Shown here: one piece after another, positions 9,086-63,224 of the stretch
Layout of the letters: every line of letters begins with the position of its first letter
Numbering within the stretch: the stretch's first letter is position 1
Assembly (NCBI GenBank): GCA_965213675.1
Contig: OZ243916.1
Span: 2,816,001-2,880,000, forward strand
Reading direction: 5' to 3'
Length of the DNA: 64,000 bases
Source of the DNA: an uncultured Candidatus Binatia bacterium
GTDB taxonomy: Bacteria > Desulfobacterota > Binatia > UBA9968 > JAJDTQ01
Program-made: the position numbers and the translations under genes
Notes under the pieces: model-generated
Database searches by the model: none
Told to the model about the DNA's origin: nothing
What the model saw: only the letters and a program-made list of their open reading frames with translations

Positions 9086-9292
9086 GTCATTCCCGCGGAA
9101 CAGGCCGTGTCAAAACCCGTGAGGCAAAACCCTACGCAATGTCATTCCCGCGGAAGCGGGAATCCAGGGGCGGCTAGTGTGCCCCCACCACTCCCCCTGG
9201 ATTCCCGCTTTCGCGGGAATGACTCTTCGGGGTGGCGCGGCGGGTTCGTTGCCGGGGTGGAGTTTTGACACAGCCTGTTCCGCGGGAATGAC
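9086..9292. repeat. Nested palindromic element (outer IR plus inner REP/dRS3-like doublet)
   Basis: GTCATTCCCGCGGAACAGGCCGTGTCAAAAC...GTTTTGACACAGCCTGTTCCGCGGGAATGAC enclosing GTCATTCCCGCGGAAGCGGGAATCCAGGGG / CCCCTGGATTCCCGCTTTCGCGGGAATGAC. Confidence 0.9.
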
Positions 9293-9347
9293 GTTTCGCA
9301 AGGTCTCTGTCTGACGAGTCTGACACACCTGGCGCGGGAGGCATCCC

Positions 9348-14174: not shown

Positions 14175-14546
14175 GAGGATCTCCTCCCCCGAACCCGTCG
14201 CCCCCCTGGATTCCCGCTTGCGCGGGAATGACGGTTCGGAGCGCCAGTGCCCATTTCGGTCTTGAGCGGCGCATGGACGCTGCCCGTTCCAACGAAATGG
14301 ACACGCCGGCATGATGGTTCGGCACGGTCATGCGCAAACGGTCATGCGCAATTCGTGTCTGCGTTCTACAAGATGAATCGACGGGCCGGCGCGAAACTAT
14401 AGGGGGAAATCCACAGGAACGAGAAAAACCCAGGCGTGGCGGAATCGTCGAAGTGCCGGCCGCATCGAGTTCCGTGCGGGGCGGCAATCCGTGCGCAGCG
14501 CCTCGCACCGCACAGGAAAGGACTCGGGCGCGGGGAGGGGTTACAA

Positions 14547-35615: not shown

Positions 35616-35837
35616 GTCATTCCCGCAGAACAGGCTGTGTCAAAGGTCGCCTGGACAAGAACTGGCACCAAACCCCCGAATCGTCATTCCCGCGGAAGCG
35701 GGAATCCAGGGGCGAGGAGAGGTGAAACGGGCGTACTCCCCGCCTCTCCCCGCCTGGATTCCCGCTTCCGCGGGAATGACGTATTCGTTACGTCCTGGTC
35801 TGCAGTGTTTTGACACGGTCTGCTGCGCGGAAATGAC
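35616..35837. repeat. Nested palindromic element (same family as 9086-9292)
   Basis: GTCATTCCCGCAGAACAGGCTGTGTCAAA...TTTGACACGGTCTGCTGCGCGGAAATGAC with inner REP doublet. Confidence 0.88.
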
Positions 35838-37718: not shown

Positions 37719-37985
37719 GTCATTCCGGCGAAACAGTCTGTGTCTAAACTCCAGAGGCACTACGTAACAGAACGTCATTCCCGCGAAAGCTTGCCCTCGA
37801 CCCCGATCGGGGGCGGGAATCCAGGGGCGGTGGTGGGGCACTGCAACGGCGTTTCCCCGCCTCGCCACCCCTGGATTCCCGCTTCCGCGGGAATGACTTC
37901 TCGGGGGTTTGGTGCAATTCTTGCCCGGTGACGTTTTGACACAGCCTGTTCCGCCGGAATGACGGAGCAGGGGCGCGGGAATGAC
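37719..37985. repeat. Nested palindromic element with extra internal insert
   Basis: Same outer and inner IRs as 9086; inner REP interrupted by TTGCCCTCGACCCCGATCGGGG, also seen inverted near 50385-50410. Confidence 0.88.
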
Positions 37986-38020
37986 CGTGATGGGGCCTGT
38001 TGCCGCAAAGGAGAACAACC

Positions 38021-39436
38021 ATGTCCTATCGCGACCTGAGGGAGTGGCTGGAGCAGGTGGACGCCATGGGCGAGTTGCGCCGGATTCCCGGCTGCGACTG
38101 GAACCTGGAGATCGGCGCCCTGGCGGAGATGGCCGGGCGCGGTCAGGACGCCTCCGCGCTGCTGTTCGACAACATCAAGGACTACCCCGAAGGCCACCGG
38201 GTGCTGGTGGGCATGGTGGAGTCGCTCAAGCGCGCGGCCCTCACCACCAACCTGCCCACGGACATCACCCGCAACGAATTCATCGCCGCCTGGAAGGAAC
38301 GCCTCAACAACCCCAAGCTGATCCCGCCGGAGTACGTGGACGAGAGCCCGCTCTACGAGAACGTGTTCACCGGCAAGGACGTGGACGTGCTCAAGCTGCC
38401 GGTGCCCAAGTGGCATGACGAGGACGGCGGTCGCTACATCGGCACCGCCCACGTGGTCATGACCCAGGACCCGGACGAGGGCTGGGTGAACATGGGCACC
38501 TACCGCACCATGGTCCACGAAAAGGACCGCCTGGCGGTCTACATCTCGCCGGGCAAGCACGGCCGCATCCACCGCCAGAAGGCCTTCGACCAGAACAAGC
38601 CCCTCAAGGTGGCCATCTCATTCGGCCAGGACCCGCTGCTGTTCCTGCTGTCCTCGCGGCAGATCCCTTGGGGTGAGCAGGAGCTGGACTACGCCGGCGG
38701 CATCAAGGGCGCGCCCATCGACGTCATCCGCGGCGAGTTCACCGGCCTGCCCATTCCCGCCCACGCCGAGATCGCCATCGAGGGCGAGATCATGCCCGAC
38801 GAGACCCGCGACGAGGGCCCCTTCGGCGAGTGGCCCGGCTATTACGCCAGCGGCTCGCGCCAGGAACCGGTGGTGCACGTCAAGAGCCTGATGTACCGAA
38901 ACAACCCCATCCTCACCGGCTCGCCGCCGTTCCGGCCGCTGCCCGGCGCCGACGGCTGCACCTCGCTGATACGGGCCGCGTTCATCTGGGATTCCATGGA
39001 AAAGGCGGGCGTCCCCGACGTCACCGGCGTCGCCTGCTACCAGAACCGCTTCTTCACCGCCGTCTCCATCCGCCAGCGCTACCCCGGCCACGCCAAGCAG
39101 GCCGCCTTGATCGCCAGCCAGAACCACACCGGCGCCTACCTCGGCCGCTACGTGGTGGTGGTGGACGACGACATCGACGTCGCCGACCTGAACGACGTCG
39201 TGTGGGCCATGTGCACCCGCTGCAACCCCGCCGACTCCATCGACATCCTGCGCCGCACCTGGAGCGGCCCCCTCGACCCCATCATCCCCCGCGACCAGAA
39301 AGGCCACAACTCCCGCGCCATCATCGACGCCTGCCGCCCCTACGAATGGATCAATGACTTCCCGCCCGTGTCGGGAGCGAGCGCGGAGCTGAAGGCGGAG
39401 GTGCTGGAGAAGTATGGGGGGTATTTGAAGGGGTGA
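38021..39436 (+). CDS. UbiD family (prFMN-dependent) decarboxylase
   Basis: DLREWL, DGGRYIGT, NMGTYR, EGPFGEWPGYY, VVVVDDDID, AIIDAC. Confidence 0.93.
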   Translation: MSYRDLREWLEQVDAMGELRRIPGCDWNLEIGALAEMAGRGQDASALLFDNIKDYPEGHRVLVGMVESLKRAALTTNLPTDITRNEFIAAWKERLNNPKLIPPEYVDESPLYENVFTGKDVDVLKLPVPKWHDEDGGRYIGTAHVVMTQDPDEGWVNMGTYRTMVHEKDRLAVYISPGKHGRIHRQKAFDQNKPLKVAISFGQDPLLFLLSSRQIPWGEQELDYAGGIKGAPIDVIRGEFTGLPIPAHAEIAIEGEIMPDETRDEGPFGEWPGYYASGSRQEPVVHVKSLMYRNNPILTGSPPFRPLPGADGCTSLIRAAFIWDSMEKAGVPDVTGVACYQNRFFTAVSIRQRYPGHAKQAALIASQNHTGAYLGRYVVVVDDDIDVADLNDVVWAMCTRCNPADSIDILRRTWSGPLDPIIPRDQKGHNSRAIIDACRPYEWINDFPPVSGASAELKAEVLEKYGGYLKG

Positions 39437-39505
39437 GGGAGGCGCAGACGTCACTTCACATTATACTTCACATAGCGTAAGCTGGGAGAGAGAAGCTCGG
39501 GCGTC

Positions 39506-40312
39506 ATGACCACGACATTGCCACCCCCCATGAGTGGCGCTTCGCCCGCCGAAGTGCCGCTTCCGCATGCCCCCTTGGAACGGGTCATCGCACAGGTCCG
39601 GTTCCCAACGATCCTGTCCATTCGCAATCCTGAAAAGGTGGCGACCTTCCAGGAGAAGATTCGGCGGACATACCCCGTCTTGAATCAGGAACAGGTCCGC
39701 CGAGTAGTATTGAATGCGGATCAGCCGGCATCGGATCCCAAGATTCAGGAAGATGTCGTGTGGCGTTTTAGCGACCGGGATCGCAAGTGGCGGATTTCGC
39801 TCGCTACGGACTTCGTTGCACTGGAAACGACAAGCTACGACAACCGTCAAGATTTCTTGACACGCCTGCGGTCAATCGTTGGTGCTGTCGAAACAACCAT
39901 GAACCCGCAAGAGGCGTTCCGTCTCGGGGTACGGTACATAGATCGGATTACGGGTCCCGCCCTGCGGGACATTTCAAAGTTTATTCGGCGGGAAGTCCTG
40001 GGTGTTTCCTTGTCTCCTATTGGTGCCGCGGCTCAAACCGTACTGACGCAAACGCAGTTCCGTGCCGAGGAAGGATCACTCCAGGCCCGCTGGGGGCTCT
40101 TACCTGCGAACGGTACCATCGATCTGGGCACTCTCGAACCCATAGACGAGCCCTCTTGGATCCTGGATCTGGACATGTCCTCGACTGAACCCCTGGACTT
40201 TTCCGCCGACATCCTAGGCAACGCGGCGGAAAAGTTTGCCGCACGCGTCTATTCAGTATTCCGCTGGATGGTGAGCGCCGACTTCTTGCGTTTCTATGGA
40301 GGGCAACCATGA
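39506..40312 (+). CDS. TIGR04255-family protein (module 1, gene A)
   Basis: LPHAPLERVIAQVRF, WRF, ALETTSY, RLGVRYID, ILDLD, FRWMV; foreign codon usage. Confidence 0.8.
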   Translation: MTTTLPPPMSGASPAEVPLPHAPLERVIAQVRFPTILSIRNPEKVATFQEKIRRTYPVLNQEQVRRVVLNADQPASDPKIQEDVVWRFSDRDRKWRISLATDFVALETTSYDNRQDFLTRLRSIVGAVETTMNPQEAFRLGVRYIDRITGPALRDISKFIRREVLGVSLSPIGAAAQTVLTQTQFRAEEGSLQARWGLLPANGTIDLGTLEPIDEPSWILDLDMSSTEPLDFSADILGNAAEKFAARVYSVFRWMVSADFLRFYGGQP

Positions 40313-40977
40313 GTCTGCCAGGGGCCGTGGCACTCAACATCGCAACTTCTGCTGGTGGCGCAATGCAGAGCCAGCCTAGGTTTGGGCGAGTCAGCGTGCG
40401 TGCGGACTTTGCCGAGCCGGCAACTATAAGCTCCTACGATTCCGTCGTGTTTTGGCCGGAAACACTTGCCAACCCCTCGCTCCCGATCCTGCTCCATGGA
40501 AAACCCGAGGCTGTACAACACGGGCGGAGTGTTGCGGAGATCCGACGCCTTTCAGGCCTGACGTGGGACGAACTGGCTGGTCTCATGCACGTCTCACGAA
40601 GAAGTCTTCACCATTGGGTTAGCGGGAAACCGGCTAGCGCTGAACACCAGACGCGACTGCAGCGGCTTCTTGGAGCGCTACGCCGTCTCGACCGGGGCGA
40701 CAGCTCACAGAATCGGGCGCTGCTCCTTGCGCCCGACGACACGGGAACGCTTTTGCTGGACTTGCTTAAAGCCGGACAATACGACGCCGCGGTGATAGCC
40801 GTTGGAGAAGCAGCGCCGTCGCGTCTTTCCCCGAGTACCGAACTGAGTGCGACGGCGCGAGCATCCCGTATCCCGCCGGCTCCAGCGGCTCTTGTCGACG
40901 CCAAACAGGATCGCCCCAGCGGTTCACATCGAGCGGTAGTCAAGAAACCGTTGAGGCACCCTAAGCCCGGCGTCTAG
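40309..40977 (+). CDS. XRE-type HTH protein, antitoxin-like (module 1, gene B)
   Basis: IRRLSGLTWDELAGLMHVSRRSLHHWVSGK; ATGA overlap with gene A. Confidence 0.75.
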   Translation: MSLPGAVALNIATSAGGAMQSQPRFGRVSVRADFAEPATISSYDSVVFWPETLANPSLPILLHGKPEAVQHGRSVAEIRRLSGLTWDELAGLMHVSRRSLHHWVSGKPASAEHQTRLQRLLGALRRLDRGDSSQNRALLLAPDDTGTLLLDLLKAGQYDAAVIAVGEAAPSRLSPSTELSATARASRIPPAPAALVDAKQDRPSGSHRAVVKKPLRHPKPGV

Positions 40978-40984
40978 CCAACCC

Positions 40985-41863
40985 ATGCCGTCCTTGCGTG
41001 CCGAAGACGTAACGCGCATCGATAGGGCGCTCCGATCTTGGCGCCAAGGGGATGTGGCCTTTGACGAGGATGTCTTCTTCCTCCATTTGGCCGACTTGCG
41101 GACACCACTCACGAATGAAGCGCAAGAGACCGCCAAGGCCCGCACTGACTCCGGCGAAGGCATGGCGGTGGAAGGCGTGGCTAGCGTAGTCTCCGGAGTC
41201 GTTCTTGTGACCCAAACGTGTGATATCGTGCGTTCGTGCGCCGAGCGACCCTATGTCGACGTGTCTCCACTGATCAAAGTTTCCGGACCTTTCCTCAACG
41301 ACGTCCGCCGGTTACGCCGCCCTGCCTTTGCACATGTGCCTGCGGTGGAAACACAAGGGCTTGTTGCTGACCTGGATCGGACCATGACCCTAGAAAAAGC
41401 GATTATTGCCGCTTGGGAACGGACACCCGGCTGGAGCACAGACGCGGAATCCCGTGCGTTCGCCGAGGCACTCTCAAGGAAACGAGCCCGGTTTGCCTTT
41501 CCAGACGACTTTGTCGCCGCCACCCAGCGCCTACAAGCCCACCTCAAGAGGCGACACAATCGTCAGAGCAGTGAGGGTGCTCACCTCCAGTCGCTTCGTG
41601 AAATTCGCGTCCGTGCAGCTCCATCTTGGGATGACCCTGCCGTGAGCCTGTTCCTATGGTTCGTGAAGGAAGCCGACCCGCCAGGGTTCGACCCCAAGTG
41701 GGACGCCTATATCGACAAGTGGAAGGACAGACTCGATGTCACAGGTCGATTCGCCGTCGATGGCGCGATCGTTTGCAGCCTGGAGGATATGACTGCGCAG
41801 GACTACGTGGAAAGCGATAGGCTAGATCTGGATCAGTTGTCCTCCCTCGACTCGCATCGGTAA
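40985..41863 (+). CDS. Hypothetical protein with putative PemK/MazF-like N-terminal domain (module 1, gene C)
   Basis: WRQGDV, VVLVTQTCDIV, V.VSPL, LVADL, RFAFPD; fold assignment by motif resemblance only. Confidence 0.6.
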   Translation: MPSLRAEDVTRIDRALRSWRQGDVAFDEDVFFLHLADLRTPLTNEAQETAKARTDSGEGMAVEGVASVVSGVVLVTQTCDIVRSCAERPYVDVSPLIKVSGPFLNDVRRLRRPAFAHVPAVETQGLVADLDRTMTLEKAIIAAWERTPGWSTDAESRAFAEALSRKRARFAFPDDFVAATQRLQAHLKRRHNRQSSEGAHLQSLREIRVRAAPSWDDPAVSLFLWFVKEADPPGFDPKWDAYIDKWKDRLDVTGRFAVDGAIVCSLEDMTAQDYVESDRLDLDQLSSLDSHR

Positions 41864-41925
41864 CGGCTTGTGCTTCTCGCCCCACATGGCCTTACAAAAT
41901 AGAATTCAACTTCTAAACTACAAGT

Positions 41926-42233
41926 GTACTCGCTCGAAGGATATTCTCCGTTCTGCGTGCCCGGCTGGAGGACTATCCTGCCGTCGCCCTCGTCGGCCCC
42001 CGACAATGCGGTAAGACAACTCTGGCCCTCTCGCTGGGCGGCCGATACTTCGACCTCGAACAGGAGACCGACCGGCTTCGTCTGGATCTTGCTTGGGAGG
42101 ACGCCACTGCTGGACACGATCTCGTCGTTTTGGACGAGGCTCAGGCTTGGCCCGCTGTTGCAGCGAGTATTTGGAACGGGGTCCGCAGGTGGTGTGCGAC
42201 TTGGAGGGGATGCTGGCGTACATTGAAGGTTAG
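41926..42233 (+). pseudogene. Internally deleted AAA_14-DUF4143 ATPase
   Basis: Unlisted frame reads AVALVGPRQCGKTT...VVLDEAQ (Walker A/B), joined out of frame to terminal EYLERGPQVVCDLEGMLAYIEG*; no start codon. Confidence 0.75.
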
Positions 42234-42622
42234 TTAGGGGCTTACGAACAAGTCATTCCCGGGGAACAGGCTATGTCAAAACGTCGCCCGAACAAGACTT
42301 CGCGCCAACCCCTCGATTCGTCATTCCCGCGGAAGCGGGAATCCATGGGTGGGGAGGCGGGGATCAGGTTGGCGGCAACCGGAAAACGTCGGTCTCGGAA
42401 TCAGCCGTCCACAACGTGCCCGTATCGATATCGAACCACCAGCCGTGCAGCGTAAGAGCGCCCTTTTCCACTCGATCCTGAATCCACGCGTAGGACCGGA
42501 GGTTTGCCAATGACCTGAGCACCGATCGCTGCTCGGCCGCAGTCGCCGTTTCCGCGTCCGTGCGCTCGCGCTCTGAGCCCTCCGCCAGCACCTCCCGGCA
42601 CGCTCCGTCCGCCAGCGCCACC
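42160..42622 (+). repeat. 463-bp direct repeat, copy 1
   Basis: Matches 46695-47157 at constant offset 4535; about a dozen mismatches, mostly in the first 120 bp. Confidence 0.95.
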
Positions 42623-43029
42623 CAAGGCCCAAGGCACTCGAACGGCGGCGGTTCCTGCCCTCGCGCCGCATCCATCGCCGCCTTGATGCCCCCGCAGTGG
42701 GAATGACCGCATACTACGACGTGGGAGACCCCGAGCGCCTTGACGCCATACTCGACGGCCGCCATCACTGCGTACGCGGTCGCGTCGCCCGGACGCCGAG
42801 GGGGCACGAGGTTGGCGACGACGCGAACCACGAAGATGTCTCCGGGACGCGCACCGAAGATCAGAGCCGGGTCTACGCGCGAGTCGCTGCAGGCGATCAC
42901 CAAGACCGCAGGCTCCTGGCCTTGCGATAGCTGCGCCATGAGAGAGCGGCCGCCGCTGTATTCGGTCCGCCGGAACATACGGGCGCCGGCCAGCAGCGCG
43001 GACAAGCTGTCTTTACGACTGTCGTTCAC
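42364..43029 (-). CDS. Beta-class carbonic anhydrase
   Basis: GQEP, IACSDSRVDP, PGDIFVVR, VCGHSHCGG, LHGWWFDI. Confidence 0.92.
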   Translation of the reverse strand: MNDSRKDSLSALLAGARMFRRTEYSGGRSLMAQLSQGQEPAVLVIACSDSRVDPALIFGARPGDIFVVRVVANLVPPRRPGDATAYAVMAAVEYGVKALGVSHVVVCGHSHCGGIKAAMDAARGQEPPPFECLGPWVALADGACREVLAEGSERERTDAETATAAEQRSVLRSLANLRSYAWIQDRVEKGALTLHGWWFDIDTGTLWTADSETDVFRLPPT

Positions 43030-43170
43030 GGTCTTGCCCCTTTACGAGTTGCCGGCCTCGTACATGCAATGAGAGGTCTTTCGCAAACCGGCGCTGTTGT
43101 GACGATGCGATACGCGTCCGAGGCAGGGTGAACCCGGGGCGGTTCAGAACTTGATGCGCTGGATCGTTTC

Positions 43171-43233
43171 TCACTCGAACAGGTCCGCATGCGTCCCTGT
43201 CCTGACAAGCGTTACGGTTTCCTCCTTACGCAT
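43171..43233 (-). pseudogene. YafQ-family toxin remnant (20 aa)
   Basis: MRKEETVTLVRTGTHADLFE*; start overlaps the antitoxin 3' end; RTGTH.DLF is the YafQ C-terminal signature. Confidence 0.75.
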
Positions 43234-43504
43234 CGTCCAGATCGTCGTCGTCCAGATCCGCCATCAGCTCTTTCACACTGTTGTAGCTCTCAAGCCCTTC
43301 CCCGGTACGGGCCTGACGGATGGCCTCGCGCGTCTCTGTATTGGGAATCCGGACGGCAAACGGCAAGCCCTTACATAGGGCGACCTGCTTGTAGAATAGC
43401 GTTATGGCCTCGGTTGCGGACAGGCCTAGCGTAGAAAACACCTTCTCCGCGTCTTGCTTCAGGTCAGGTTCCACACGGGCACGAATCATTTCAGTCTTGG
43501 CCAT
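43226..43504 (-). CDS. RelB/DinJ family antitoxin
   Basis: MAKTEMIRARVEPDLK, LGLSATEAI, GLPF, IPNTETREAI. Confidence 0.9.
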   Translation of the reverse strand: MAKTEMIRARVEPDLKQDAEKVFSTLGLSATEAITLFYKQVALCKGLPFAVRIPNTETREAIRQARTGEGLESYNSVKELMADLDDDDLDDA

Positions 43505-44073
43505 CGCAGACCTCCATGATTTCATGTGTACCACATTCGAGGAACGTCACAACGGTTGACTTCTCAAGTACACACGAGCCTCAACTGATGCCCCCCATTG
43601 ACAGAGCGCACGTCGTCGTGGAGCCATGGAAACAGACGACCTCGGATTGCGCCTTGTGGAACTCCGCGGCCGGAACCTTGAACTGGTCGAGCGACGGATC
43701 TTGAAACGGCAGTCGCAGGCCGGTATCAAGCTGGGTCAGATGCCGGTGGCCGAAAGACGCGACTATCCGCTCGACGAGGACTTGGTGTCGATGCTAGGGT
43801 TGCTTCCTCGTGCGCTCGCCCCGATGCGCAGCCAGGACAACTGCAGGCGGTTGCCACCGGTATTGGAGCCATGGGGCGCGCGGAAGCGGCGTGCTGGCTC
43901 GGCGGCGCCCTGCACCTCAAGCATCCGCAACGAGTCCTGACTGCGTTCCTGCTGACCGAGCCGCCGTCGCGCAGCAGATCGTGAACGTAGGCGCCGTGGT
44001 CGAGACGAGACATACAGGTCAGGACCCCGGTTCCACCCTGCACGGCCCGGCGTGATCGGACAGGAGGAGCGGT

Positions 44074-44766
44074 ATGCGAATTGAGCCAGAAGTCGATGGG
44101 GTAAGCATCGTCTTGGTGGGTAATTTCAACCCGGCCATTTTCACGCCAAGCTGGTTTGCATTGTACGACTTGTTGCCGAAGAGCGTTGCGGACAGCGCGG
44201 AACTGGGAATCGCTCACCCAGAGATCACGCAATTTCGCGCCGACTGGCTCACTTTTGAGGTCAGCAAGGACACGTTCAAAGCTGAAACCCTGCTGGCACC
44301 CCACATACGGGTGCGTGATCTTGTGGTTCGCGTTCTTAAGGAATACCTATATCATGCGCCCTTGAGGGCATTTGGAATCAATCGCAATGTCCATTTCCGG
44401 GTCCCGGATTTCAGCGCAAGGGACCGGATTGGCAGGACGCTGGCGCCGGTAAAGCCGTGGGGCGCTTGGGGTCAGCGCCTCGGTACAAGCGGTCATCAAG
44501 GGGGCATGATATCTCTAACCATGAGACAAGCAACCGTCGAAGGAAGGCCTGCCGATGATCAGATCAACGTGACGGTGCAACCGTCGAACCGCATCGTCGA
44601 AGCGCCTGGGGTGTATGTAGGCATCAATGATCATTACACAGCTAGTGAGGCGGATGGACCCGGAAGCGGCAGGCGGCTGATGGAGATTCTGGAACAAAAC
44701 TTCGACAACTCGGTTGCGAGCGGAGAAAAGATCATCGACCACATTATGTCATTGAGTGAGCATTAG
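44074..44766 (+). CDS. Divergent TIGR04255-like protein (module 2, gene A)
   Basis: SIVLVGNFNPAIFTPSWF, LRAFGINRNVHF, VYVGINDHY; AGGAGG RBS; relationship to gene A1 inferred from size and motif layout. Confidence 0.6.
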   Translation: MRIEPEVDGVSIVLVGNFNPAIFTPSWFALYDLLPKSVADSAELGIAHPEITQFRADWLTFEVSKDTFKAETLLAPHIRVRDLVVRVLKEYLYHAPLRAFGINRNVHFRVPDFSARDRIGRTLAPVKPWGAWGQRLGTSGHQGGMISLTMRQATVEGRPADDQINVTVQPSNRIVEAPGVYVGINDHYTASEADGPGSGRRLMEILEQNFDNSVASGEKIIDHIMSLSEH

Positions 44767-44777
44767 GAGGTTTGTTC

Positions 44778-45383
44778 ATGCTTCACGGGGGGCAAGCCGT
44801 AGCTGTGGACAGCACGGATGCGTTTGATGAAGACAGCGGACATAGGTCCGATATTTTGACGCAAGTATCGCTTCGCGTTGCATCAGCGGTGGCCGACGCT
44901 TGGTTGGCGCGGGGGAATTACATCAGCGGATCGTTCCGAACCAGCACACCGATGAAACCAGCGTCGGACGAAGACTACACCGGGCATCCGCAGACCGCCG
45001 ACGGAAACGCCCCGATCCAGGGTCTACCGCCTCGGGCGCGACGGGTGCAATCCGCCACGTTCCATGCGCTGCAGGAATGGGAAGGGTATGTTCTGGCTAT
45101 CGGCAAGCACGATCTTGAGGCACGCCTCATCGATATTACAGCGGGCGGGAAGTACGAGGGTGAGGAGGCAACTATCCCCCTCCTGGAGATATCGGCCCAT
45201 GATGCGGAAAAGCTCCGGGTCGGTGGCGTCTTCCGCTGGGTGATCGGATACGAACACACAATAGGAGGAAACAGAAGGCGAGTGTCCCAGATTGTCTTCC
45301 GAGATCTTCCTGCGGTCACGAAATCCGATCTGCGAGACTCTGAAGAATGGGCCCGCAATATGTTCCAGTCGCTCAATCCGTGA
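44778..45383 (+). CDS. Hypothetical protein, low-complexity N-terminus plus beta-rich (OB-like) C-terminal domain (module 2, gene B)
   Basis: ALQEWEGYV, LRVGGVFRWVIGY, SQIVFRDLP; AGGAGG overlapping the gene A stop. Confidence 0.7.
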   Translation: MLHGGQAVAVDSTDAFDEDSGHRSDILTQVSLRVASAVADAWLARGNYISGSFRTSTPMKPASDEDYTGHPQTADGNAPIQGLPPRARRVQSATFHALQEWEGYVLAIGKHDLEARLIDITAGGKYEGEEATIPLLEISAHDAEKLRVGGVFRWVIGYEHTIGGNRRRVSQIVFRDLPAVTKSDLRDSEEWARNMFQSLNP

Positions 45384-46462
45384 CAGCGATCAACCTACCT
45401 CCGGCCAACGGTGAACTTGAAATCACCCTCTTCGGACCCGGCTATGGGGAAAGCATTGCTTTGCACATCGGCGACGGCTCTTGGGTTCTCATCGACTCCT
45501 GCATTGGCCCGGGCGGCGAACCGCGAGCGCTACAGTATCTGACGGACCTCGGTGTCGATCCGGCCCGTGACGTCGGCCTGATCGTCGCTACCCACTGGCA
45601 TGACGATCACATTCGGGGCATGGCCGAACTGGTGACGGCCTGCAGCAACGCCGTTTTCTGCTGCGCCGGCGTACTCTGCAAAAAAGAGTTTCTTGGTATG
45701 GTCGGAGCCCTGGAGCGTCGGGGTCTTCCCAGCACCGGTTCGGGCGTACGGGAACTCTACAAAGTCTTTAATAGACTCAAGGGACTCAAGGCAACAGCAA
45801 CTTTCGCCATCGCCAGCCGCATCATCCACGCCCAGGGCTCCTGCGAAATCCGGTCCCTCTCGCCACACGACAAGGAGTTTGTCAGCTTCTTGAGTGAGGT
45901 CAGCAGCCTGATTCCGGGCCAGGGCGAGACCAAGCGCCGAATTCCCAGCCTCACACCCAACAAAGTTTCTGTCGTGTTGTGGATCAATATCGGGGATGTC
46001 GCGCTACTGCTCGGTTCCGACATGGAGAAACCGGGTTGGGGCGACATCCTCCACAGCACGACCGGACCGACGGGGAAAGCGTCGGTGTTCAAAGTGCCGC
46101 ATCATGGGTCGGAGAATGCGGACGACCCAGGGGTGTGGCAAAACATGCTGGAAACCGAACCCTGGGCTGTAGTGGCGCCCTGGCGCCTGGGCGGGCGGAT
46201 TCTGCCGAACCCACACGACGTGCAACGCATCCTGTCCTTTACTGCAAACGCCTACTCTACGGTGTCAAGCAGGCAGCTTACCTCATCACCGACACGGAGA
46301 CACCGCATGGTCGACAAGACGATACGGGAATCCGGAATCCAACTTCGGTCCGTGCCGGTGTCGCACGACGCCGTCCGGCTGCGCAGGGTGGCGGGAAACC
46401 AGGCACAATGGCGGGTCGAGCTCTTCGGCTCGGCATGTGCGCTGAAGGATTTTGCTGCGTAA
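45380..46462 (+). CDS. Metallo-beta-lactamase-fold hydrolase, ComEC/Rec2-like putative nuclease (module 2, gene C)
   Basis: GPGYGES, LIDSC, THWHDDHIRG, LLGSD, FKVPHHGS; GTGA overlap with gene B. Confidence 0.82.
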   Translation: MTAINLPPANGELEITLFGPGYGESIALHIGDGSWVLIDSCIGPGGEPRALQYLTDLGVDPARDVGLIVATHWHDDHIRGMAELVTACSNAVFCCAGVLCKKEFLGMVGALERRGLPSTGSGVRELYKVFNRLKGLKATATFAIASRIIHAQGSCEIRSLSPHDKEFVSFLSEVSSLIPGQGETKRRIPSLTPNKVSVVLWINIGDVALLLGSDMEKPGWGDILHSTTGPTGKASVFKVPHHGSENADDPGVWQNMLETEPWAVVAPWRLGGRILPNPHDVQRILSFTANAYSTVSSRQLTSSPTRRHRMVDKTIRESGIQLRSVPVSHDAVRLRRVAGNQAQWRVELFGSACALKDFAA

Positions 46463-46661: not shown

Positions 46662-46768
46662 TGGGCGCCCACCGGCGATTTCTCGTGTGTCAAAGCAGGG
46701 AGTACTTGGAACGGAGTCCGCAGGTGGTGTGCGACTTGGCGGGGATGTTGAAGTACATTGAAGGTTAG
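46658..46768 (+). pseudogene. C-terminal fragment, probably of the AAA-DUF4143 ATPase
   Basis: LVGAHRRFLVCQSREYLERSPQVVCDLAGMLKYIEG*, cut at the CTAG of the element end. Confidence 0.5.
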
Positions 46769-47157
46769 TGAGGGGCTTACGAACACGTCATTCCCGGGGA
46801 ACAGGCTGTGTCAAAACGTCGCCCGAACAAGACTTCGCGCCAACCCCTCGATTCGTCATTCCCGCGGAAGCGGGAATCCAGGGGTGGGGAGGCGGGGATC
46901 AGGTTGGCGGCAACCGGAAAACGCCGGTCTCGGAATCAGCCGTCCACAACGTGCCCGTATCGATATCGAACCACCAGCCGTGCAGCGTAAGAGCGCCCTT
47001 TTCCACTCGATCCTGAATCCACGCGTAGGACCGGAGGTTTGCCAATGACCTGAGCACCGATCGCTGCTCGGCCGCAGTCGCCGTTTCCGCGTCCGTGCGC
47101 TCGCGCTCTGAGCCCTCCGCCAGCACCTCCCGGCACGCTCCGTCCGCCAGCGCCACC
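46695..47157 (+). repeat. 463-bp direct repeat, copy 2 (includes half palindromic element and 3' third of the carbonic anhydrase gene)
   Basis: Direct sequence comparison with 42160-42622. Confidence 0.95.
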
Positions 47158-47160
47158 TCA

Positions 47161-47334
47161 ATCGCACCGGGACCGGATCTGAAGTGGCACATGTCGGAGG
47201 TTGTCGAAGAACGGATCGCGGATAACCGGCCCTTGATCGAACTGCGAGGTAAGAAAGTCATGCTCCCGAACAAGAAGGACATGTTTCCGAGGAAAGACGC
47301 CTTGGAGTGGCGGCTGGAGCACCTTCTGAAATAG
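47161..47334 (+). pseudogene. C-terminal remnant of an HNH restriction-type endonuclease
   Basis: IAPGPDLKWHMS...LRGKKVMLP...PRKDALEWR resembles the tail that follows the HNH motif; begins right at the repeat junction. Confidence 0.5.
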
Positions 47335-47344
47335 GTGCGAGTTC

Positions 47345-48520
47345 TCACGCCCCCCTCAACACCTCCGCCATCTCCCTCACCCCAATCACCTCCACCTCCC
47401 GTGACAGCGGATAGCGTTCCGTTCCCGCGTACACGACGAACGCCTTCTCGGGCCGTACGTCTTCCAGCGCGTTGTAGAAGCCTCGGGTGGGGCGTGGGGC
47501 AAGGCTGTGCTTGATCTCGATGGCCCAGGGGGCGGTGCGGCCGGGGAGCTCCAGGACCAGGTCGATCTCGGCGCCGGCGGCGGTGCGGTAGAAGCTGGCG
47601 AGGGTCCGCCAGGGTGCCACGGCCAGGAGATTCTCGATCACGAAACCCTCCCAGCTCGCGCCCATCACGGGGTGACCGGTAAGGGTGAGCTCGTCCTGAA
47701 TGCCGAGGAGCCCGTGCACGAGGCCGCTGTCTCTGACGTACACCTTGGGCGACTTCACCAGCCGCTTGCGGGTGTTGGCGATGAAGGGCGGCAAACGCCG
47801 AACCAGCAGGAGATCGGTCATGAGATCGACGTACCGGGTGACCATGGGCGCGCTGATGGACAGGCTGGAGGCCAACGCCGAGGCGTTCAGCAGGGATCCC
47901 TGCCCGTGGGCGAGCATCCGCCACAGCCTCTCCAGCGTGGCGGCGGGAACCGGGTACGGCGAGAACTGCGGCATGTCCCGTTCCAGGTACGTGCTGATGA
48001 AGTTCAGACGGTACCCGAGGCTGTCTGCATCGTTGGCGGCGAGAAAGCTCTCGGGGAAGCCGCCGCATACCCACAATCTCCTGAGGGCCTCGTCGTCAGG
48101 CGCTGCTTCGAGAACGTCGAAGGGATGGAGCGCCACGTATTCGATGCGCCCCGCAAGGCTCTCGCTCGACTGCCGCAGCAGGTCCATGGATGCGGAGCCC
48201 AGGATCAGGAACCGGCCCGTGCGCCTGCCCGCCCGGCGGCCTTCGTCGATGAGGCCGCGCAACTCGCGGAACAACTCCGGGGCGCGGTGGACCTCGTCGA
48301 TGATCACCAGACGGTCGGCGTACCGCTCAAGGAAGAGCCTGGGCTCGGCCAGCCTGCCCCGATCCGTGCTTTTCTCAAGGTCAAGGTATACGTTATTGTC
48401 AACGTTGGCGATTTGCCGCGCCAGCGTGGTCTTGCCAACTTGACGCGGGCCGATGAGTGCCACGGCGGCCTGACGACCCAGAGCGACGCGGACGTCTTTG
48501 GCTGCACGGCGCGCGATCAT
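47345..48520 (-). CDS. AAA_14 ATPase with DUF4143 domain
   Basis: GPRQVGKTT, IIDEVH, ILGSAS, ESLAGR, GGFPE, KSPKVYVRDSG, EIDLV..AIEIK. Confidence 0.9.
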   Translation of the reverse strand: MIARRAAKDVRVALGRQAAVALIGPRQVGKTTLARQIANVDNNVYLDLEKSTDRGRLAEPRLFLERYADRLVIIDEVHRAPELFRELRGLIDEGRRAGRRTGRFLILGSASMDLLRQSSESLAGRIEYVALHPFDVLEAAPDDEALRRLWVCGGFPESFLAANDADSLGYRLNFISTYLERDMPQFSPYPVPAATLERLWRMLAHGQGSLLNASALASSLSISAPMVTRYVDLMTDLLLVRRLPPFIANTRKRLVKSPKVYVRDSGLVHGLLGIQDELTLTGHPVMGASWEGFVIENLLAVAPWRTLASFYRTAAGAEIDLVLELPGRTAPWAIEIKHSLAPRPTRGFYNALEDVRPEKAFVVYAGTERYPLSREVEVIGVREMAEVLRGA

Positions 48521-48598: not shown

Positions 48599-49072
48599 AT
48601 GTCTCCCTCTTGGATAGCAGCTCTGCGGCGCATCGCCGCCACGTTCGCCTCGAAAGGCCGCAACGTTCGCGGGACCGTAGACGACGACCCCCACGACGGC
48701 ACCCCACCCGACGACGACACCGTCGTCCTCCCCATCGAGGAGGTTTTAGGGGATGGTCACTACCCAAACGATAGCGACCATCTGCCCGACGAAGACACCG
48801 TCGTCCTCCCCATCGAGGACCACATCGACCTCCACCCGTTCGCGCCCCGGGACATCCCGAGCGTGGTGGAGGACTACGTCTGGCAGTGCCACGGGGAGGG
48901 GCTCCGGGAGGTGCGGATCATTCACGGGCGCGGCAAGGGGGTGCAGCGGCGCATCGTGCAGTCCGCGTTGGAGAAGAACCCGCTGGTGGAGTCCTGCCAC
49001 GATGCGCCGGCTGAGAGGGGCGGGTGGGGCGCGACGGTGGCGGTGATTCGTGCGAAGGAGCGCGGAGAGTAG
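48599..49072 (+). CDS. Smr/MutS2 domain protein (start uncertain; duplicated N-terminal segment)
   Basis: IDLH, VRIIHGRGKG, GGWGATV. Confidence 0.8.
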   Translation: MSPSWIAALRRIAATFASKGRNVRGTVDDDPHDGTPPDDDTVVLPIEEVLGDGHYPNDSDHLPDEDTVVLPIEDHIDLHPFAPRDIPSVVEDYVWQCHGEGLREVRIIHGRGKGVQRRIVQSALEKNPLVESCHDAPAERGGWGATVAVIRAKERGE

Positions 49073-49109: not shown

Positions 49110-50273
49110 TTACGTCACGATCGCGTCCGTCCAGAGTCGTTCGAGGAAGCGTTTCCAGGGCAATATCCAGATGCCCTCGCTGGTGCGGCGGGGGGCGTCT
49201 TCGTTGCACACAATTACCGCTTGGGACGGATGATGTTCCTCCATGTAGGCGCGCATGGCCCTGAGTTCTTCGGGGCGGACACGGGGGCTTCCCTTGACCT
49301 CGATGGCTATCTCGCCCGCACGGCCGAGGATGAAGTCGCACTCCAGCCCGGACTTGGTGCGCCAGAAGCGTACCGGGAAATCGTACTCGCGATAGGAACG
49401 ATAGGCGAGCAGCTCCATCAGCACGAGATGCTCCAGGGCGCGCCCGAAGTCGGCACCGTGCTCGCGTTCGATCCGGCGCCCGGTCACGTGGCCGGCCACG
49501 CCGACGTCGAACAGGTAGAATTTCGGGGCGCGCGTGATGACCGCGCGTGAGCGGCGCCGGCTGAACGGCTCGACGAACACACCCAGCAGCGTATCCACAA
49601 GTATCTGAAAATACTCCCGCACGGTCTTGGAGTCGACACCGCAGTCCCTGGCGACGTTGCTGTAGTTCAGAAGTTCTCCATGGGAGAACGACAAGGCTTC
49701 GAAAAACCTCGAGAAACCGGCCACGTTACGCGTCAGCCCTTCGTCGAACACCTCCTCCTTCAGATAGTCATCCACATAGCCCGCGAGCGCCCGCCGGTAT
49801 CCCGCCGCGTCGTAGTGCTGCGGGACCAGCCCCCGGTTGAGCGCCCTCAGGAGATCGAATTCCGGCACTTCCGGCCAGGTGAGCGGATGAAGTTCGAAAC
49901 GCCAGGCGCGGCCGCCCAGCAGATTGGCCCGGCCGCGTTTCAGCTTCCTGGCACTGGAACCGCACAAGAGGAAGCTCAACCCTTCGTTCTCGATCAGTCG
50001 ATGAACCTCGTCCAGAACGGCGGGCGCCTTCTGCACCTCGTCGACGATGATGGGGTCGGCCCGCGTCGCTCGATCGAATGCCGCCACGCGCTCGGACAAC
50101 GCCCAAGGCGCCCGCGTGAGTTCCAGCAGAAGCCGGGTATCGAGCAGGTCGAACCGGGCCGCGTTGGGGAAGGTCTCGCGAAGCAAGGTTGACTTGCCGG
50201 TCTTGCGCGGGCCCCACAAAAAGGCGGACTGCCCCCGCGGCAGGTCAAGGCGGAGGGTGCGGCGGTAGTGCAT
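49110..50273 (-). CDS. AAA_14 ATPase with DUF4143 domain
   Basis: GPRKTGKST, IVDEVQK, LCGSSARKL, LLGGRA, PKFYLFDVGV, ECDFI..AIEVK. Confidence 0.9.
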   Translation of the reverse strand: MHYRRTLRLDLPRGQSAFLWGPRKTGKSTLLRETFPNAARFDLLDTRLLLELTRAPWALSERVAAFDRATRADPIIVDEVQKAPAVLDEVHRLIENEGLSFLLCGSSARKLKRGRANLLGGRAWRFELHPLTWPEVPEFDLLRALNRGLVPQHYDAAGYRRALAGYVDDYLKEEVFDEGLTRNVAGFSRFFEALSFSHGELLNYSNVARDCGVDSKTVREYFQILVDTLLGVFVEPFSRRRSRAVITRAPKFYLFDVGVAGHVTGRRIEREHGADFGRALEHLVLMELLAYRSYREYDFPVRFWRTKSGLECDFILGRAGEIAIEVKGSPRVRPEELRAMRAYMEEHHPSQAVIVCNEDAPRRTSEGIWILPWKRFLERLWTDAIVT

Positions 50274-50452
50274 ATTTTCGGATCTCACTCCGAAATAGTC
50301 GGGCTATTTCGGAATATACTCCGAAGTGGCACGCCTTGACAAGGCGTTGGCGGAGGGCCGCGTGGGTTTCCGGGAAGGCCCTCCCGCCCCCGATCGGGGT
50401 CGAGGGCAAGCTTTCGCGGGAATGGTGGTTTCGTCCCGGGGCCTGGTGCCGC

Positions 50453-62941: not shown

Positions 62942-63224
62942 GTCATTCCCGCTTCTGTGTTTTTTGAGTCATTCCCGCGAAAGCGGGAAACCAGGAGAGG
63001 TGGGGCGGGACCCCTCCGCCGCCCCTGGATTCCCGCTTTCGCGGGAATGACTCAAACAGGGGGGCGGGGATGACTAGAAAAACAGGGGGGGCGGGGGAAT
63101 GACCAAATACAGAGCGGGGCGGGGATGACTAATACAGAGCGGGACGGGGATGACTGAACAGAGAGGGACGGGAATGGCTGAACAGAGAGGGACGGGGATG
63201 ACTGAACAGAGAGGCGGGGATGAC
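62942..63224. repeat. REP-like doublet followed by about 8 degenerate tandem CGGG(G/A)ATGAC-spacer units
   Basis: GTCATTCCCGCGAAAGCGGGAAACCAGG / CCTGGATTCCCGCTTTCGCGGGAATGAC, then 22-28 bp period repeats. Confidence 0.85.

What the first reader, a model, noticed from the sequence alone, without database searches (positions are those of the whole stretch)
39450..46462. Candidate new tripartite defence/toxin system family: TIGR04255-like gene + adaptor + swappable nuclease, present twice
Seen: two compositionally foreign, tightly coupled three-gene operons about 2.2 kb apart share one layout. Gene A is a 230-270 aa TIGR04255-type protein. Gene B is about 200-220 aa with a 70-90 aa low-complexity N-terminus and a folded domain (HTH in module 1, OB-like in module 2). 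Gene C is an unrelated putative nuclease (PemK/MazF-like or MBL hydrolase). Neighbours are TA, HNH and AAA-DUF4143 genes. Known: to my knowledge TIGR04255 is an uncharacterised, sporadically distributed family. In toxin-antitoxin-chaperone systems a SecB-like chaperone stabilises an antitoxin through a disordered tail and senses phage proteins. Inference: A is a chaperone or sensor that binds B's disordered N-terminus, B restrains C, and phage triggers release. This would be an order-reversed TAC analogue with exchangeable effectors. Homology of A2 to A1 is by eye only.
Basis: partly seen in the sequence, partly recalled or inferred. Interest (0 to 1): 0.82.

Follow-up and report, generated by a model that had tools for sequence, protein, structure and literature searches.

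The report
Three-gene toxin modules with swappable effectors
Two neighbouring three-gene clusters each join a conserved non-enzyme protein to an adaptor and a likely nuclease toxin, and the same layout recurs in many bacteria with other toxins, which points to an undescribed kind of toxin-antitoxin-like phage-defence module.

Summary
Both operons are real, tightly packed and sit in a lower-GC island. A1 is a true TIGR04255 protein. A2 is not one by any sequence test, and the fold test could not be run. Each triad is strictly conserved elsewhere: B1 follows A1 in 58 of 58 loci and C1 in 45 of 45 loci with enough sequence; B2 and C2 follow A2 in 79 of 80. Across 30 TIGR04255 loci of the same phylum the third gene changes (PIN 5, PemK/MazF 2, HEPN 1, HicA 1, DUF7689 3, C1-like 2). 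One natural swap shows the logic: two 85%-identical TIGR04255 proteins have adaptors that share only their first 82 residues, and their toxins are unrelated. Distant A2 relatives head operons with C1-like and HEPN-like third genes, so the A2 family does the same job as TIGR04255, related or not. Module 2 lies inside BREX-related DUF499/methylase loci in 29 of 79 cases, and the window keeps a broken DUF7680 gene from such a locus. C1 is not MazF-like; it is a new family. No HNH neighbour was found. No paper or defence library names these modules. Best reading: a TAC-like tripartite toxin system with a new guardian protein.

The parts
39506..40312 (+). A1: TIGR04255-family protein (268 aa), first gene of module 1
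   Evidence: NCBIfam TIGR04255 E 7.4e-49, 166.8 bits. 1054 homologues. Only hydrophobic, Pro and aromatic residues are conserved across diverse members.
40309..40977 (+). B1: adaptor or antitoxin-like protein (222 aa). It has a variable N-terminal 70 aa with a short TSAxGxM motif, a central Xre-type HTH (about 72-125) and a basic C-terminal tail.
   Evidence: ATGA overlap with A1. Weak HTH hits. Alignment A6. Conservation profile. Follows A1 homologues in 58 of 58 loci with at least 700 nt downstream.
40985..41863 (+). C1: putative toxin of an unnamed family (292 aa) with an invariant TQxCD motif (TQTCDI at residue 76) and many invariant Arg/Lys/Asp residues
   Evidence: No family in Pfam, NCBIfam, PADLOC or PHROGs and no PDB sequence match. 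Alignment A5. Motif in 32 of 32 members. Present in 45 of 45 loci with at least 1700 nt downstream of A1 homologues.
41926..42084 (+). Fragment of an AAA-DUF4143 gene (N-terminal 57 aa only)
   Evidence: tblastn with the window's own AAA-DUF4143 protein: 49% over residues 1-57.
42160..42625 (.). Direct repeat, copy 1 (467 bp, 97% identical to copy 2). It holds a REP-like element and the 3' end of the carbonic anhydrase gene.
42364..43029 (-). Beta-class carbonic anhydrase (221 aa), not part of the modules
   Evidence: PF00484 E 3.2e-47
43226..43534 (-). RelB/DinJ-family antitoxin gene (102 aa) with no recognisable toxin partner
   Evidence: PF04221 E 9e-14; TIGR02384 E 2.7e-20. The adjacent ORF 43026-43208 has no family.
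43650..43972 (+). Broken DUF7680 gene (two reading frames, N-terminal about 50 residues missing). It is a remnant of a BREX-related DUF499 locus.
   Evidence: PF24728 E 1.4e-9 for ORF 43626-43940. Two tblastn pieces in different frames. An intact DUF7680 gene lies upstream of A2 in 14 of 79 loci, in most of them ending within about 200 nt of A2.
44074..44766 (+). A2: first gene of module 2 (230 aa). It belongs to a large unnamed family (GxFNPAIFxPxWF ... HTP..GINR.VHF ... VNDHY).
   Evidence: 675 homologues. 1689 representatives at E<=1e-3. No Pfam, NCBIfam, PADLOC or PHROG family.
44778..45383 (+). B2: adaptor (201 aa from the ATG; 203 from TTG 44772). It has a variable N-terminal ~95 aa and a strongly conserved C-terminal ~105-aa domain of unknown fold.
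   Evidence: GGAGG 7 nt before ATG 44778. M3 of the 203-aa ORF (the ATG at 44778) is conserved in at least 90% of homologues. Alignment A7. No family and no PDB match. Naturally fused to A2 in P0242.
45347..46462 (+). C2: MBL-fold hydrolase (371 aa), the likely nuclease effector of module 2
   Evidence: PF00753 E 3.6e-9. Weak ComEC, RTasMBL and LmuA hits. HxHxDH in 77 of 79 homologues and HHG in 74 of 79.
46695..47161 (.). Direct repeat, copy 2, with a duplicated carbonic-anhydrase 3' end
47345..48520 (-). AAA_14-DUF4143 ATPase (PADLOC candidate PDC-S01), island neighbour
48599..49072 (+). Smr-domain protein, island neighbour
   Evidence: PF01713 E 6.5e-19
49110..50288 (-). Second AAA_14-DUF4143 ATPase (PDC-S01), at the end of the island
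   Evidence: The next gene is a molybdopterin oxidoreductase.

Best explanation
Both clusters are three-component toxin-antitoxin-like (abortive-infection type) modules built on one plan. C is the toxic effector. C1 is a new TQxCD family, probably acting on nucleic acid. C2 is an MBL-fold nuclease. B is a two-part adaptor: its C-terminal domain is matched to the toxin and holds it in check, and in B1 it probably also represses the operon through the HTH. B's poorly conserved N-terminal 70-95 residues are matched to A. A (TIGR04255 in module 1, the unnamed A2 family in module 2) is a conserved non-enzymatic guardian that binds B's N-terminal part and so decides whether B stays functional. A trigger, most likely a phage protein or the loss of a partner defence system, disturbs A-B and frees C. 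Functionally this is a toxin-antitoxin-chaperone (TAC) system. It differs from TAC in three ways: the third component is unrelated to SecB, the gene order is reversed, and the addiction element sits at the antitoxin's N-terminus. Module 2 also acts as an embedded back-up effector of BREX-related DUF499/methylase systems, and the window's copy has lost that host system.

Shown: operon conservation, toxin swapping, the modular swap in B, the A2-B2 fusion and the mobile or defence contexts. Inferred: A-B binding, B-C neutralisation, toxicity of C and the trigger.
For: (1) The triads are strict units. B2 and C2 follow A2 in 79 of 80 genome loci from many phyla; the one miss ends at a contig end. 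B1 is present in 58 of 58 metagenome loci and C1 in 45 of 45 loci with room for them, mostly with a 4-nt A/B overlap.
(2) The toxin is swappable. In 30 TIGR04255 loci of the phylum the third gene is PIN (5), PemK/MazF (2), HEPN (1 by Pfam, plus 1 by BLAST cluster), HicA (1, weak), DUF7689 (3), C1 family (2) or one unknown family (4). The second gene has no Pfam family at E<=0.01 in any locus but L089 (a weak HTH_31 hit).
(3) There is a natural domain swap. The TIGR04255 proteins of L088 and L091 are 85% identical. Their B proteins match only over residues 1-82 (57% identity), and their C proteins are unrelated (TQxCD-like against PemK). L091 and L110, both with PemK, share the C-terminal part of B.
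(4) A looks non-catalytic. Across diverse TIGR04255 members only Y111 and F252 are invariant and P23, P57 and F117 nearly so. In 118 A2 relatives only G16, P20 and W27 are invariant.
(5) P0242 is a natural A2-B2 fusion, A2 at residues 1-229 and B2 at 232-431.
(6) Seven distant A2 relatives (hhalign 99.7% to the A2 family) each head small operons. In 4 the third gene hits the C1 profile (E 5e-5 to 3e-4; hhalign 77%). In 1 it is HEPN-like (92%). In 1 the second gene matches a TIGR04255-operon adaptor (89%). Controls scored 0.2-0.3%.
(7) The contexts are mobile or defensive. TIGR04255 is on 17 plasmids, and 7 of the 8 viewed show the three-gene layout. It also occurs in P2-like prophages between integrase and portal genes, next to a toxin/antidote pair. 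Module 2 has a DUF499, DUF7680 or N6-methylase gene of BREX-related type beside it (within 6 kb) in 29 of 79 loci.
(8) The C2 catalytic motifs are kept.
(9) Sporadic spread: TIGR04255 in 43 of 401 genomes and A2 in 12 of 401 genomes of the phylum.
Against: C1 and B2 have no known fold, so 'toxin' and 'neutraliser' are read from position only. A conserved protein binding a poorly conserved tail is not the obvious expectation, although TAC works that way. A2 shows no detectable homology to TIGR04255, so the two modules may work differently. Fifty of 79 module-2 loci show no BREX-related neighbour within 6 kb, and only 1 of 20 extended TIGR04255 loci does, so the back-up role cannot be general. 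The A2-B2 fusion is a single database protein and could be a sequencing or gene-calling error. Five 'QxCD' third genes seen by eye (L087, L088, L107, L109, L111) were not recovered by the C1 profile. The promoter and terminator scans were no better than shuffles.
Confidence: 0.55

Rival explanations
1. A is itself the antitoxin, neutralising C directly or acting on its target. B is only a transcription factor or assembly factor. The plan would then resemble paaR-paaA-parE or other three-gene TA operons with a separate regulator.
For: B1 carries an HTH (RefSeq names). A is the most conserved partner. No second gene in the TIGR04255 operons hits a known antitoxin family.
Against: B's C-terminal part changes with the toxin while A stays 85% identical. 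This is what a toxin-matched neutraliser in B predicts and is hard to fit with A contacting unrelated toxins directly. Most B proteins have no HTH.
Confidence: 0.17
2. Module 2 is not an autonomous system. It is a sub-assembly of BREX-related DUF499/DUF7680/methylase systems, for example an extra nuclease arm, and the window's copy is an inactive relic left after that system was lost.
For: Upstream DUF499 in 20 of 79 loci, DUF7680 in 14, a DUF1156 methylase starting 0-46 nt after C2 in 10 (a partial match 123 nt after it in one more). The window has a frameshifted DUF7680 remnant directly upstream of A2. The literature describes embedded auxiliary effectors in such loci (PMC12839542, section 35 read).
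Against: Fifty of 79 loci have no such neighbour within 6 kb, yet they keep all three genes intact with the catalytic motifs. The triad occurs alone on an Adhaeribacter plasmid. In four loci other genes lie between DUF7680 and A2, so the site behaves as a cargo hotspot.
Confidence: 0.13
3. The two operons are unrelated gene clusters that only share a layout, and the resemblance between module 1 and module 2 is coincidence. Alternatively, both are plain plasmid or island addiction modules with no role in phage defence.
For: No sequence homology between A1 and A2 or between B1 and B2. No PADLOC hit for A, B or C1. No phage assay exists.
Against: Distant A2 relatives pair with the same effector families as TIGR04255. 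Both B proteins have the same bipartite conservation. The contexts include prophage hotspots and BREX-related loci.
Confidence: 0.15

Closest known systems
Toxin-antitoxin-chaperone (TAC) systems (HigBA/MqsRA/HicAB with a SecB-like chaperone; CmdTAC)
   Same: Three genes. A conserved non-toxic third protein is proposed to act on an extension of the antitoxin. Toxins are exchangeable. There is a link to phage defence. (Abstracts seen in the listing: PMC5105189, 10.1101/2024.02.24.581848, PMC11618068.)
   Different: A1 and A2 have no SecB or other Pfam match. The third component is encoded first, not last. The extension is at the N-terminus of B, not a C-terminal ChAD. The effectors include an MBL hydrolase and the new C1 family.
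Panacea (PanA, DUF4065) hyperpromiscuous antitoxin domain / NetFlax network of type II TAs
   Same: One conserved partner is combined with many unrelated toxin families. An accessory domain is separate from the neutralising domain. (Passages of PMC10440598 seen; abstract of 10.1101/2021.05.07.442387 in the listing.)
   Different: Panacea is a domain inside a two-gene antitoxin. Here the conserved element is a separate protein in a three-gene operon. The main text of the NetFlax paper holds none of the words tripartite, three-gene, third gene or tricistronic.
Auxiliary or back-up effectors embedded in BREX and BREX-related (DUF499-centred, BR/MANTIS) loci; PrrC in a type I R-M locus (recalled)
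   Same: Module 2 lies between the small gene and the methylase gene of DUF499 loci. Embedded HEPN, PIN, OLD-TOPRIM and other effectors are described the same way (PMC12839542, section 35; MANTIS passages).
   Different: That paper's main text never mentions MBL and lists no triad of this kind. Its Supplementary Data S4 could not be seen. Most module-2 loci stand alone.
ComEC-type and defence-associated MBL nucleases (LmuA-MBL, RT-associated MBL, Avs1a, 6A-MBL)
   Same: MBL fold with HxHxDH. Weak profile hits to these models.
   Different: All hits are far below the family cut-offs (for example 6A-MBL 17.9 bits against 220; ComEC 24.4 against 190). The partner genes differ.

Membership tests
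TIGR04255 (NCBIfam) | A1 scores above the curated cut-off (30 bits) over the full model | tested here: met
   166.8 bits, E 7.4e-49, model positions 2-249 of 252
TIGR04255 (NCBIfam) | A2 or its relatives score against the model, or their profile matches a TIGR04255 profile | tested here: not met
   No hit at E<=0.1. 0 of 118 relatives hit. hhalign 0.1-0.5%. Cross hmmsearch best E 0.014 among 270 proteins.
TIGR04255 superfamily by fold | A1 and A2 share a three-dimensional fold | not testable with these tools
No PDB relative by sequence.
Toxin-antitoxin-chaperone (TAC) | SecB-like chaperone | tested here: not met
   A1 and A2: 0 Pfam families at E<=0.1
Toxin-antitoxin-chaperone (TAC) | Antitoxin with a C-terminal chaperone-addiction extension; chaperone gene last | tested here: not met
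   The variable extension is N-terminal in B1 and B2. A is the first gene.
Type II toxin-antitoxin | Toxin of a recognised TA family next to a small neutralising protein | tested here: inconclusive
   Met in other TIGR04255 operons (PIN, PemK, HEPN, HicA). In the window C1 has no family and C2 is an MBL hydrolase. Toxicity was not tested.
PemK/MazF | C1 matches PF02452 | tested here: not met
   No Pfam hit at E<=0.1 for C1. 0 of 32 C1 relatives hit PemK at E<=1.
Metallo-beta-lactamase fold | C2 has a Pfam Lactamase_B match above cut-off and the HxHxDH motif | tested here: met
   37.3 bits against 22.7. HWHDDH at residue 83.
BREX-related DUF499 (BR / MANTIS) system | DUF499 ATPase, N6-methylase and helicase-nuclease in one locus | tested here: not met
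   tblastn with DUF499 and methylase queries found only a broken DUF7680 gene in the window. The genome's one DUF499 match is about 1.9 Mb away.
Any named anti-phage system in PADLOC-DB 2.0.0 or NCBIfam 20.0 | Component models hit A, B or C | tested here: not met
   A1, B1, C1, A2 and B2: 0 PADLOC families. C2 has only weak generic MBL hits. NCBIfam gives no anti-phage model above cut-off.

The most novel reading that the evidence does not exclude
TIGR04255 and the A2 family are two branches of one old superfamily of non-enzymatic guardian proteins. Each holds a two-part adaptor by its N-terminal tail and through it a toxin drawn from at least seven families. They would act as the infection sensors of a very widespread, so far unnamed class of tripartite abortive-infection systems, found on plasmids of clinical Enterobacterales and Acinetobacter, in prophage hotspots and in sponge-symbiont genomes. 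Some would be wired as alarms that fire when a BREX-related restriction system is disabled.
Probability: 0.3. Interest if true: 0.85.

Novelty: new variant of a known kind. Interest (0 to 1): 0.72.

Why it matters
TIGR04255 is annotated in thousands of genomes as a family of unknown function. I found no paper that mentions it ('TIGR04255': 0 papers; 'DUF7689': 0 papers), and no defence library names these operons. If the model holds, it gives this family a function. It adds a second, SecB-independent solution to chaperone- or guardian-controlled toxin systems. It supplies two new candidate effector families, C1 (TQxCD) and DUF7689, and an MBL nuclease triad. It also offers a simple rule for finding new toxins: look at the third gene after a TIGR04255 or A2 gene. 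The natural adaptor swap makes the mechanism directly testable with chimeras.

Tried and rejected
The protein atlas holds neither A2 nor three stored homologues.

Sequence routes to link A2 with TIGR04255 all failed: BLASTP, four profile-profile runs, a family scan of 118 relatives and cross HMM searches. The hhalign alignment is collinear (A2 57-215 with A1 93-257, GINRxVHF over LRYINxI, VNDHY over LDID), but P is only 0.12, so I treat it as a lead and not as evidence.

PDB sequence searches with profiles of A1, A2, B2 and C1 gave nothing usable. Pfam scans of B2 and C1 relatives gave only scattered chance hits. C2 has no tblastn match in the phage collection. The search for longer, fused forms of A1 found none, which is weak evidence. 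Promoter and terminator scans were at chance level. There is no Rfam family or tRNA in 36-51 kb.

The link of L211's third gene to the 'group iv' toxins seen by eye was not supported (hhalign 13.5%). The large ORF upstream of A2 in L013 is an over-extended frame over a DppC permease gene, not a partner. Papers on 6A-MBL, domain-centric discovery and NetFlax describe nothing like these triads in the passages read.

Full report
WHAT IS THERE. Between a UbiD-family decarboxylase gene (38000-39436) and a molybdopterin oxidoreductase gene (50453-52918) lies an island of about 11 kb. Its GC content is 0.55-0.62, against 0.65-0.70 on both sides. It holds the following genes:
- Module 1: A1 39506-40312, B1 40309-40977, C1 40985-41863.
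- A fragment of an AAA-DUF4143 gene (41926-42084).
- A carbonic anhydrase gene and an orphan RelB antitoxin gene.
- A broken DUF7680 gene (43650-43972).
- Module 2: A2 44074-44766, B2 44778-45383, C2 45347-46462.
- Two AAA-DUF4143 genes (PADLOC candidate PDC-S01) and an Smr-domain gene.

The genes within each module are packed tightly. A1 and B1 share ATGA, and seven bases separate B1 from C1. B2's ATG follows a GGAGG eleven bases after the A2 stop, and C2 overlaps B2 by 37 bases. A 467-bp direct repeat (97% identical; 42160-42625 and 46695-47161) carries a REP-like element and the 3' end of the carbonic anhydrase gene. It brackets the segment that holds the carbonic anhydrase gene, RelB, the DUF7680 remnant and module 2. 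No tRNA or Rfam RNA lies in 36-51 kb.

WHAT THE SIX PROTEINS ARE.
- A1 is a clear TIGR04255 protein (E 7.4e-49).
- B1 has only sub-threshold HTH hits. Its relatives keep a central HTH block, a short TSAxGxM motif near the N-terminus and a basic tail. RefSeq names plasmid homologues as HTH regulators.
- C1 has no family in Pfam, NCBIfam, PADLOC or PHROGs and no PDB relative by sequence. It is not PemK/MazF. Its 32 aligned relatives share an invariant TQxCD motif and many invariant Arg, Lys and Asp residues.
- A2 and B2 have no family anywhere.
- C2 is an MBL-fold hydrolase with HWHDDH and HHG. It has weak likeness to the ComEC, RT-associated and Lamassu MBL models.

IS A2 A TIGR04255 PROTEIN? 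Not by sequence.
- BLASTP finds nothing.
- Profile-profile comparison gives 0.1-0.5% probability in four set-ups, including a diverse TIGR04255 profile and an A2 profile widened with distant members.
- 0 of 118 diverse A2 relatives hit the TIGR04255 model.
- Cross HMM searches are empty.

The hhalign alignment is collinear and puts similar short motifs on each other, but it is not significant.

ARE THE TRIADS REAL UNITS? Yes, both of them.

For module 2, a scan of one genome per species found 119 A2 relatives. In the best 80 loci, B2 and C2 follow A2 in 79, and the exception ends at a contig end. These loci come from Latescibacterota, Acidobacteriota, Gemmatimonadota, Alpha- and Gammaproteobacteria, Binatia, Entotheonella, Poribacteria, Dehalococcoidia and others. 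Identity is 47-89%, which with the patchy spread (12 of 401 genomes of the window's phylum) indicates horizontal transfer. The triad is also on an Adhaeribacter plasmid at 26% identity.

For module 1, I examined 80 metagenome loci with A1 relatives (42-52% identity). B1 is present in 58 of 58 loci with at least 700 nt downstream, and C1 in 45 of 45 with at least 1700 nt.

IS THE TOXIN SWAPPABLE? Yes, for TIGR04255. The family occurs in 43 of 401 genomes of the phylum. I looked at 30 loci, 29 fetched plus the genome's own second copy. The gene is followed, usually with overlapping stop and start codons, by a small gene of 80-210 aa with no Pfam family at E<=0.01 (L089's alone has a weak HTH_31 hit), and then by a third gene. 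The third genes were as follows:

| Third gene | Loci |
|---|---|
| PIN | 5 |
| PemK/MazF | 2 |
| HEPN | 1 by Pfam, plus 1 by BLAST cluster |
| HicA | 1 (below the cut-off) |
| DUF7689 | 3 |
| C1 family | 2 |
| One unknown family | 4 |

Five further third genes show a QxCD-like motif by eye, but the C1 profile did not recover them. The remaining loci were cut short or unclear. Second-gene clusters go with third-gene clusters.

On plasmids, 7 of 8 contexts viewed show TIGR04255, then a 190-230 aa gene (named HTH in 4), then a 255-305 aa hypothetical gene. The hosts were Chroococcidiopsis, Acinetobacter, Klebsiella, Rhizobium, Gloeocapsa, Pseudomonas and Vibrio; Kocuria showed only one annotated downstream gene. 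The Klebsiella and Acinetobacter third genes match the C1 profile weakly (57% and 49%). P2-like prophages carry a TIGR04255-like gene plus two genes between the integrase and portal genes, beside a toxin/antidote pair.

HOW THE PARTS FIT. Four observations bear on the mechanism.

First, A looks non-catalytic. Across diverse members only Y111 and F252 are invariant, with P23, P57 and F117 nearly so (TIGR04255), and only G16, P20 and W27 are invariant in the A2 family.

Second, B is bipartite in both modules. A poorly conserved N-terminal 70-95 residues is followed by a well conserved domain (alignments).

Third, there is a natural swap. The TIGR04255 proteins of L088 and L091 are 85% identical. 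Their B proteins match only over residues 1-82 (57% identity). Their third genes are unrelated, one TQxCD-like and one PemK. L091 and L110, both with PemK toxins, share B's C-terminal part. So B's N-terminal part travels with A and its C-terminal part travels with the toxin.

Fourth, one database protein (P0242, 438 aa) is an A2-B2 fusion.

THE TWO MODULES DO THE SAME JOB. The phylum search with the A2 profile also found seven distant relatives (E 1e-8 to 1e-17; hhalign 99.7% to the A2 family). Each is followed by a small gene and then a third gene.
- In four (L207, L208, L210, L212) the third gene carries TQSCDL and hits the C1 profile (E 5e-5 to 3e-4 among 104 proteins; hhalign 77%).
- In L213 the third gene is HEPN-like (hhalign 92% to the HEPN genes of TIGR04255 operons).
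- In L209 the second gene matches the adaptor of the 'group iv' TIGR04255 operons (89%).
- Unrelated control pairs scored 0.2-0.3%.

So the A2 superfamily and TIGR04255 draw on the same pool of adaptors and effectors. This makes them functional equivalents even though homology is unproven.

I clustered the neighbours of module 2 in the 79 complete loci.
- A DUF499 AAA+ ATPase (about 1010 aa) lies upstream on the same strand in 20 loci.
- A small DUF7680 gene lies upstream of A2 in 14 loci, in most of them ending within about 200 nt of A2.
- A DUF1156 N6-methylase starts 0-46 nt after C2 in 10 loci, with a partial match 123 nt after it in one more.
- Another N6 methylase occurs in 6 loci.
- At least one of these is present in 29 of 79 loci.

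DUF499 plus a DUF1156 methylase plus a helicase-nuclease is the BREX-related 'BR' system, of which MANTIS is the studied type-2 example. The published survey describes auxiliary and back-up effectors embedded in such loci: HNH, HKD, PD-(D/E)XK, OLD-TOPRIM, HEPN, PIN and Schlafen. It does not mention MBL anywhere in its main text (PMC12839542, passages and section 35, part 1 of 2, read; MANTIS preprint passages). I could not see its Supplementary Data S4.

The window keeps a frameshifted DUF7680 remnant directly upstream of A2 but no DUF499 or methylase gene, and the genome's only DUF499 match is about 1.9 Mb away. So the window's module 2 probably came out of such a locus. One of 20 extended TIGR04255 loci also has a DUF1156-like methylase and a DUF499-like gene just downstream.

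COMPARISON WITH WHAT IS KNOWN. The closest working analogue is the toxin-antitoxin-chaperone system. It is not a member of that family: there is no SecB-like protein, the gene order is reversed and the extension is N-terminal. The combinatorial use of one partner with many toxins recalls Panacea, but here the partner is a separate protein. Searches for 'TIGR04255' and 'DUF7689' found no paper. PADLOC 2.0.0 and NCBIfam 20.0 have no system model for A, B or C1. I therefore rate it a new variant of a known kind, a tripartite TA or abortive-infection module.

VERDICT. It is wrong or unproven in three details: A2 homology, the C1 fold and the HNH neighbour. What remains inferred is A-B binding, toxicity and the trigger.

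Noticed in passing
window 38000-39436 and L002 2404-3717: Both TIGR04255 operons of this genome begin right after a UbiD-family decarboxylase gene (70 nt and about 130 nt downstream). This may be chance in a genome with several UbiD paralogues, or a preferred insertion site.
   Followed up: partly
window 42160-42625 and 46695-47161: A 467-bp direct repeat (97% identical) duplicates the 3' 260 nt of the carbonic anhydrase gene plus a REP-like element. It brackets the carbonic anhydrase gene, RelB, the DUF7680 remnant and module 2, as if this 4.5-kb block entered by recombination at the carbonic anhydrase 3' end.
   Followed up: partly
window 37854-37963, 35616-35719, 9183-9302, 63013-63051, 14201-14233: Further copies (78-97% identical) of a roughly 110-nt REP-like palindromic element that also lies inside the direct repeat. 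It gives the recurrent 'FPRKRESRGGEAG' ORF translations and a chance miRNA hit in Rfam.
   Followed up: no
window 43226-43534 (-): This RelB/DinJ antitoxin gene has no recognisable toxin gene beside it. The small ORF 43026-43208 has no family.
   Followed up: partly
window 41926-42084 (+): An N-terminal 57-residue fragment of a third AAA-DUF4143 gene lies directly after module 1, so the island has been rearranged.
   Followed up: no
L004, L005, L019, L054 (about 3.5-4 kb between DUF7680 and A2): In these BREX-related loci other genes lie between DUF7680 and the A2 triad, so the gap between the small gene and the methylase acts as a cargo hotspot that may hold further unknown modules.
   Followed up: no
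L083, L090, L092 (third genes); L097, L099, L100, L101 (second and third genes): DUF7689 and an unnamed pair of families ('group iv') take the toxin and adaptor positions after TIGR04255. They are candidate new toxin and antitoxin families. No paper mentions DUF7689.
   Followed up: partly
L002 282-1625 (-): The genome's second TIGR04255 gene is followed by a 274-aa and a 169-aa ORF with no Pfam family. This is a third triad in the same genome with yet another pair of partners.
   Followed up: partly
L003-L082 record titles: Many A2-triad loci come from MAGs of lineages typical of marine sponge symbionts (Poribacteria, Entotheonella, Latescibacterota, Binatia), with 50-60% identity across phyla. 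This suggests exchange within one habitat.
   Followed up: no
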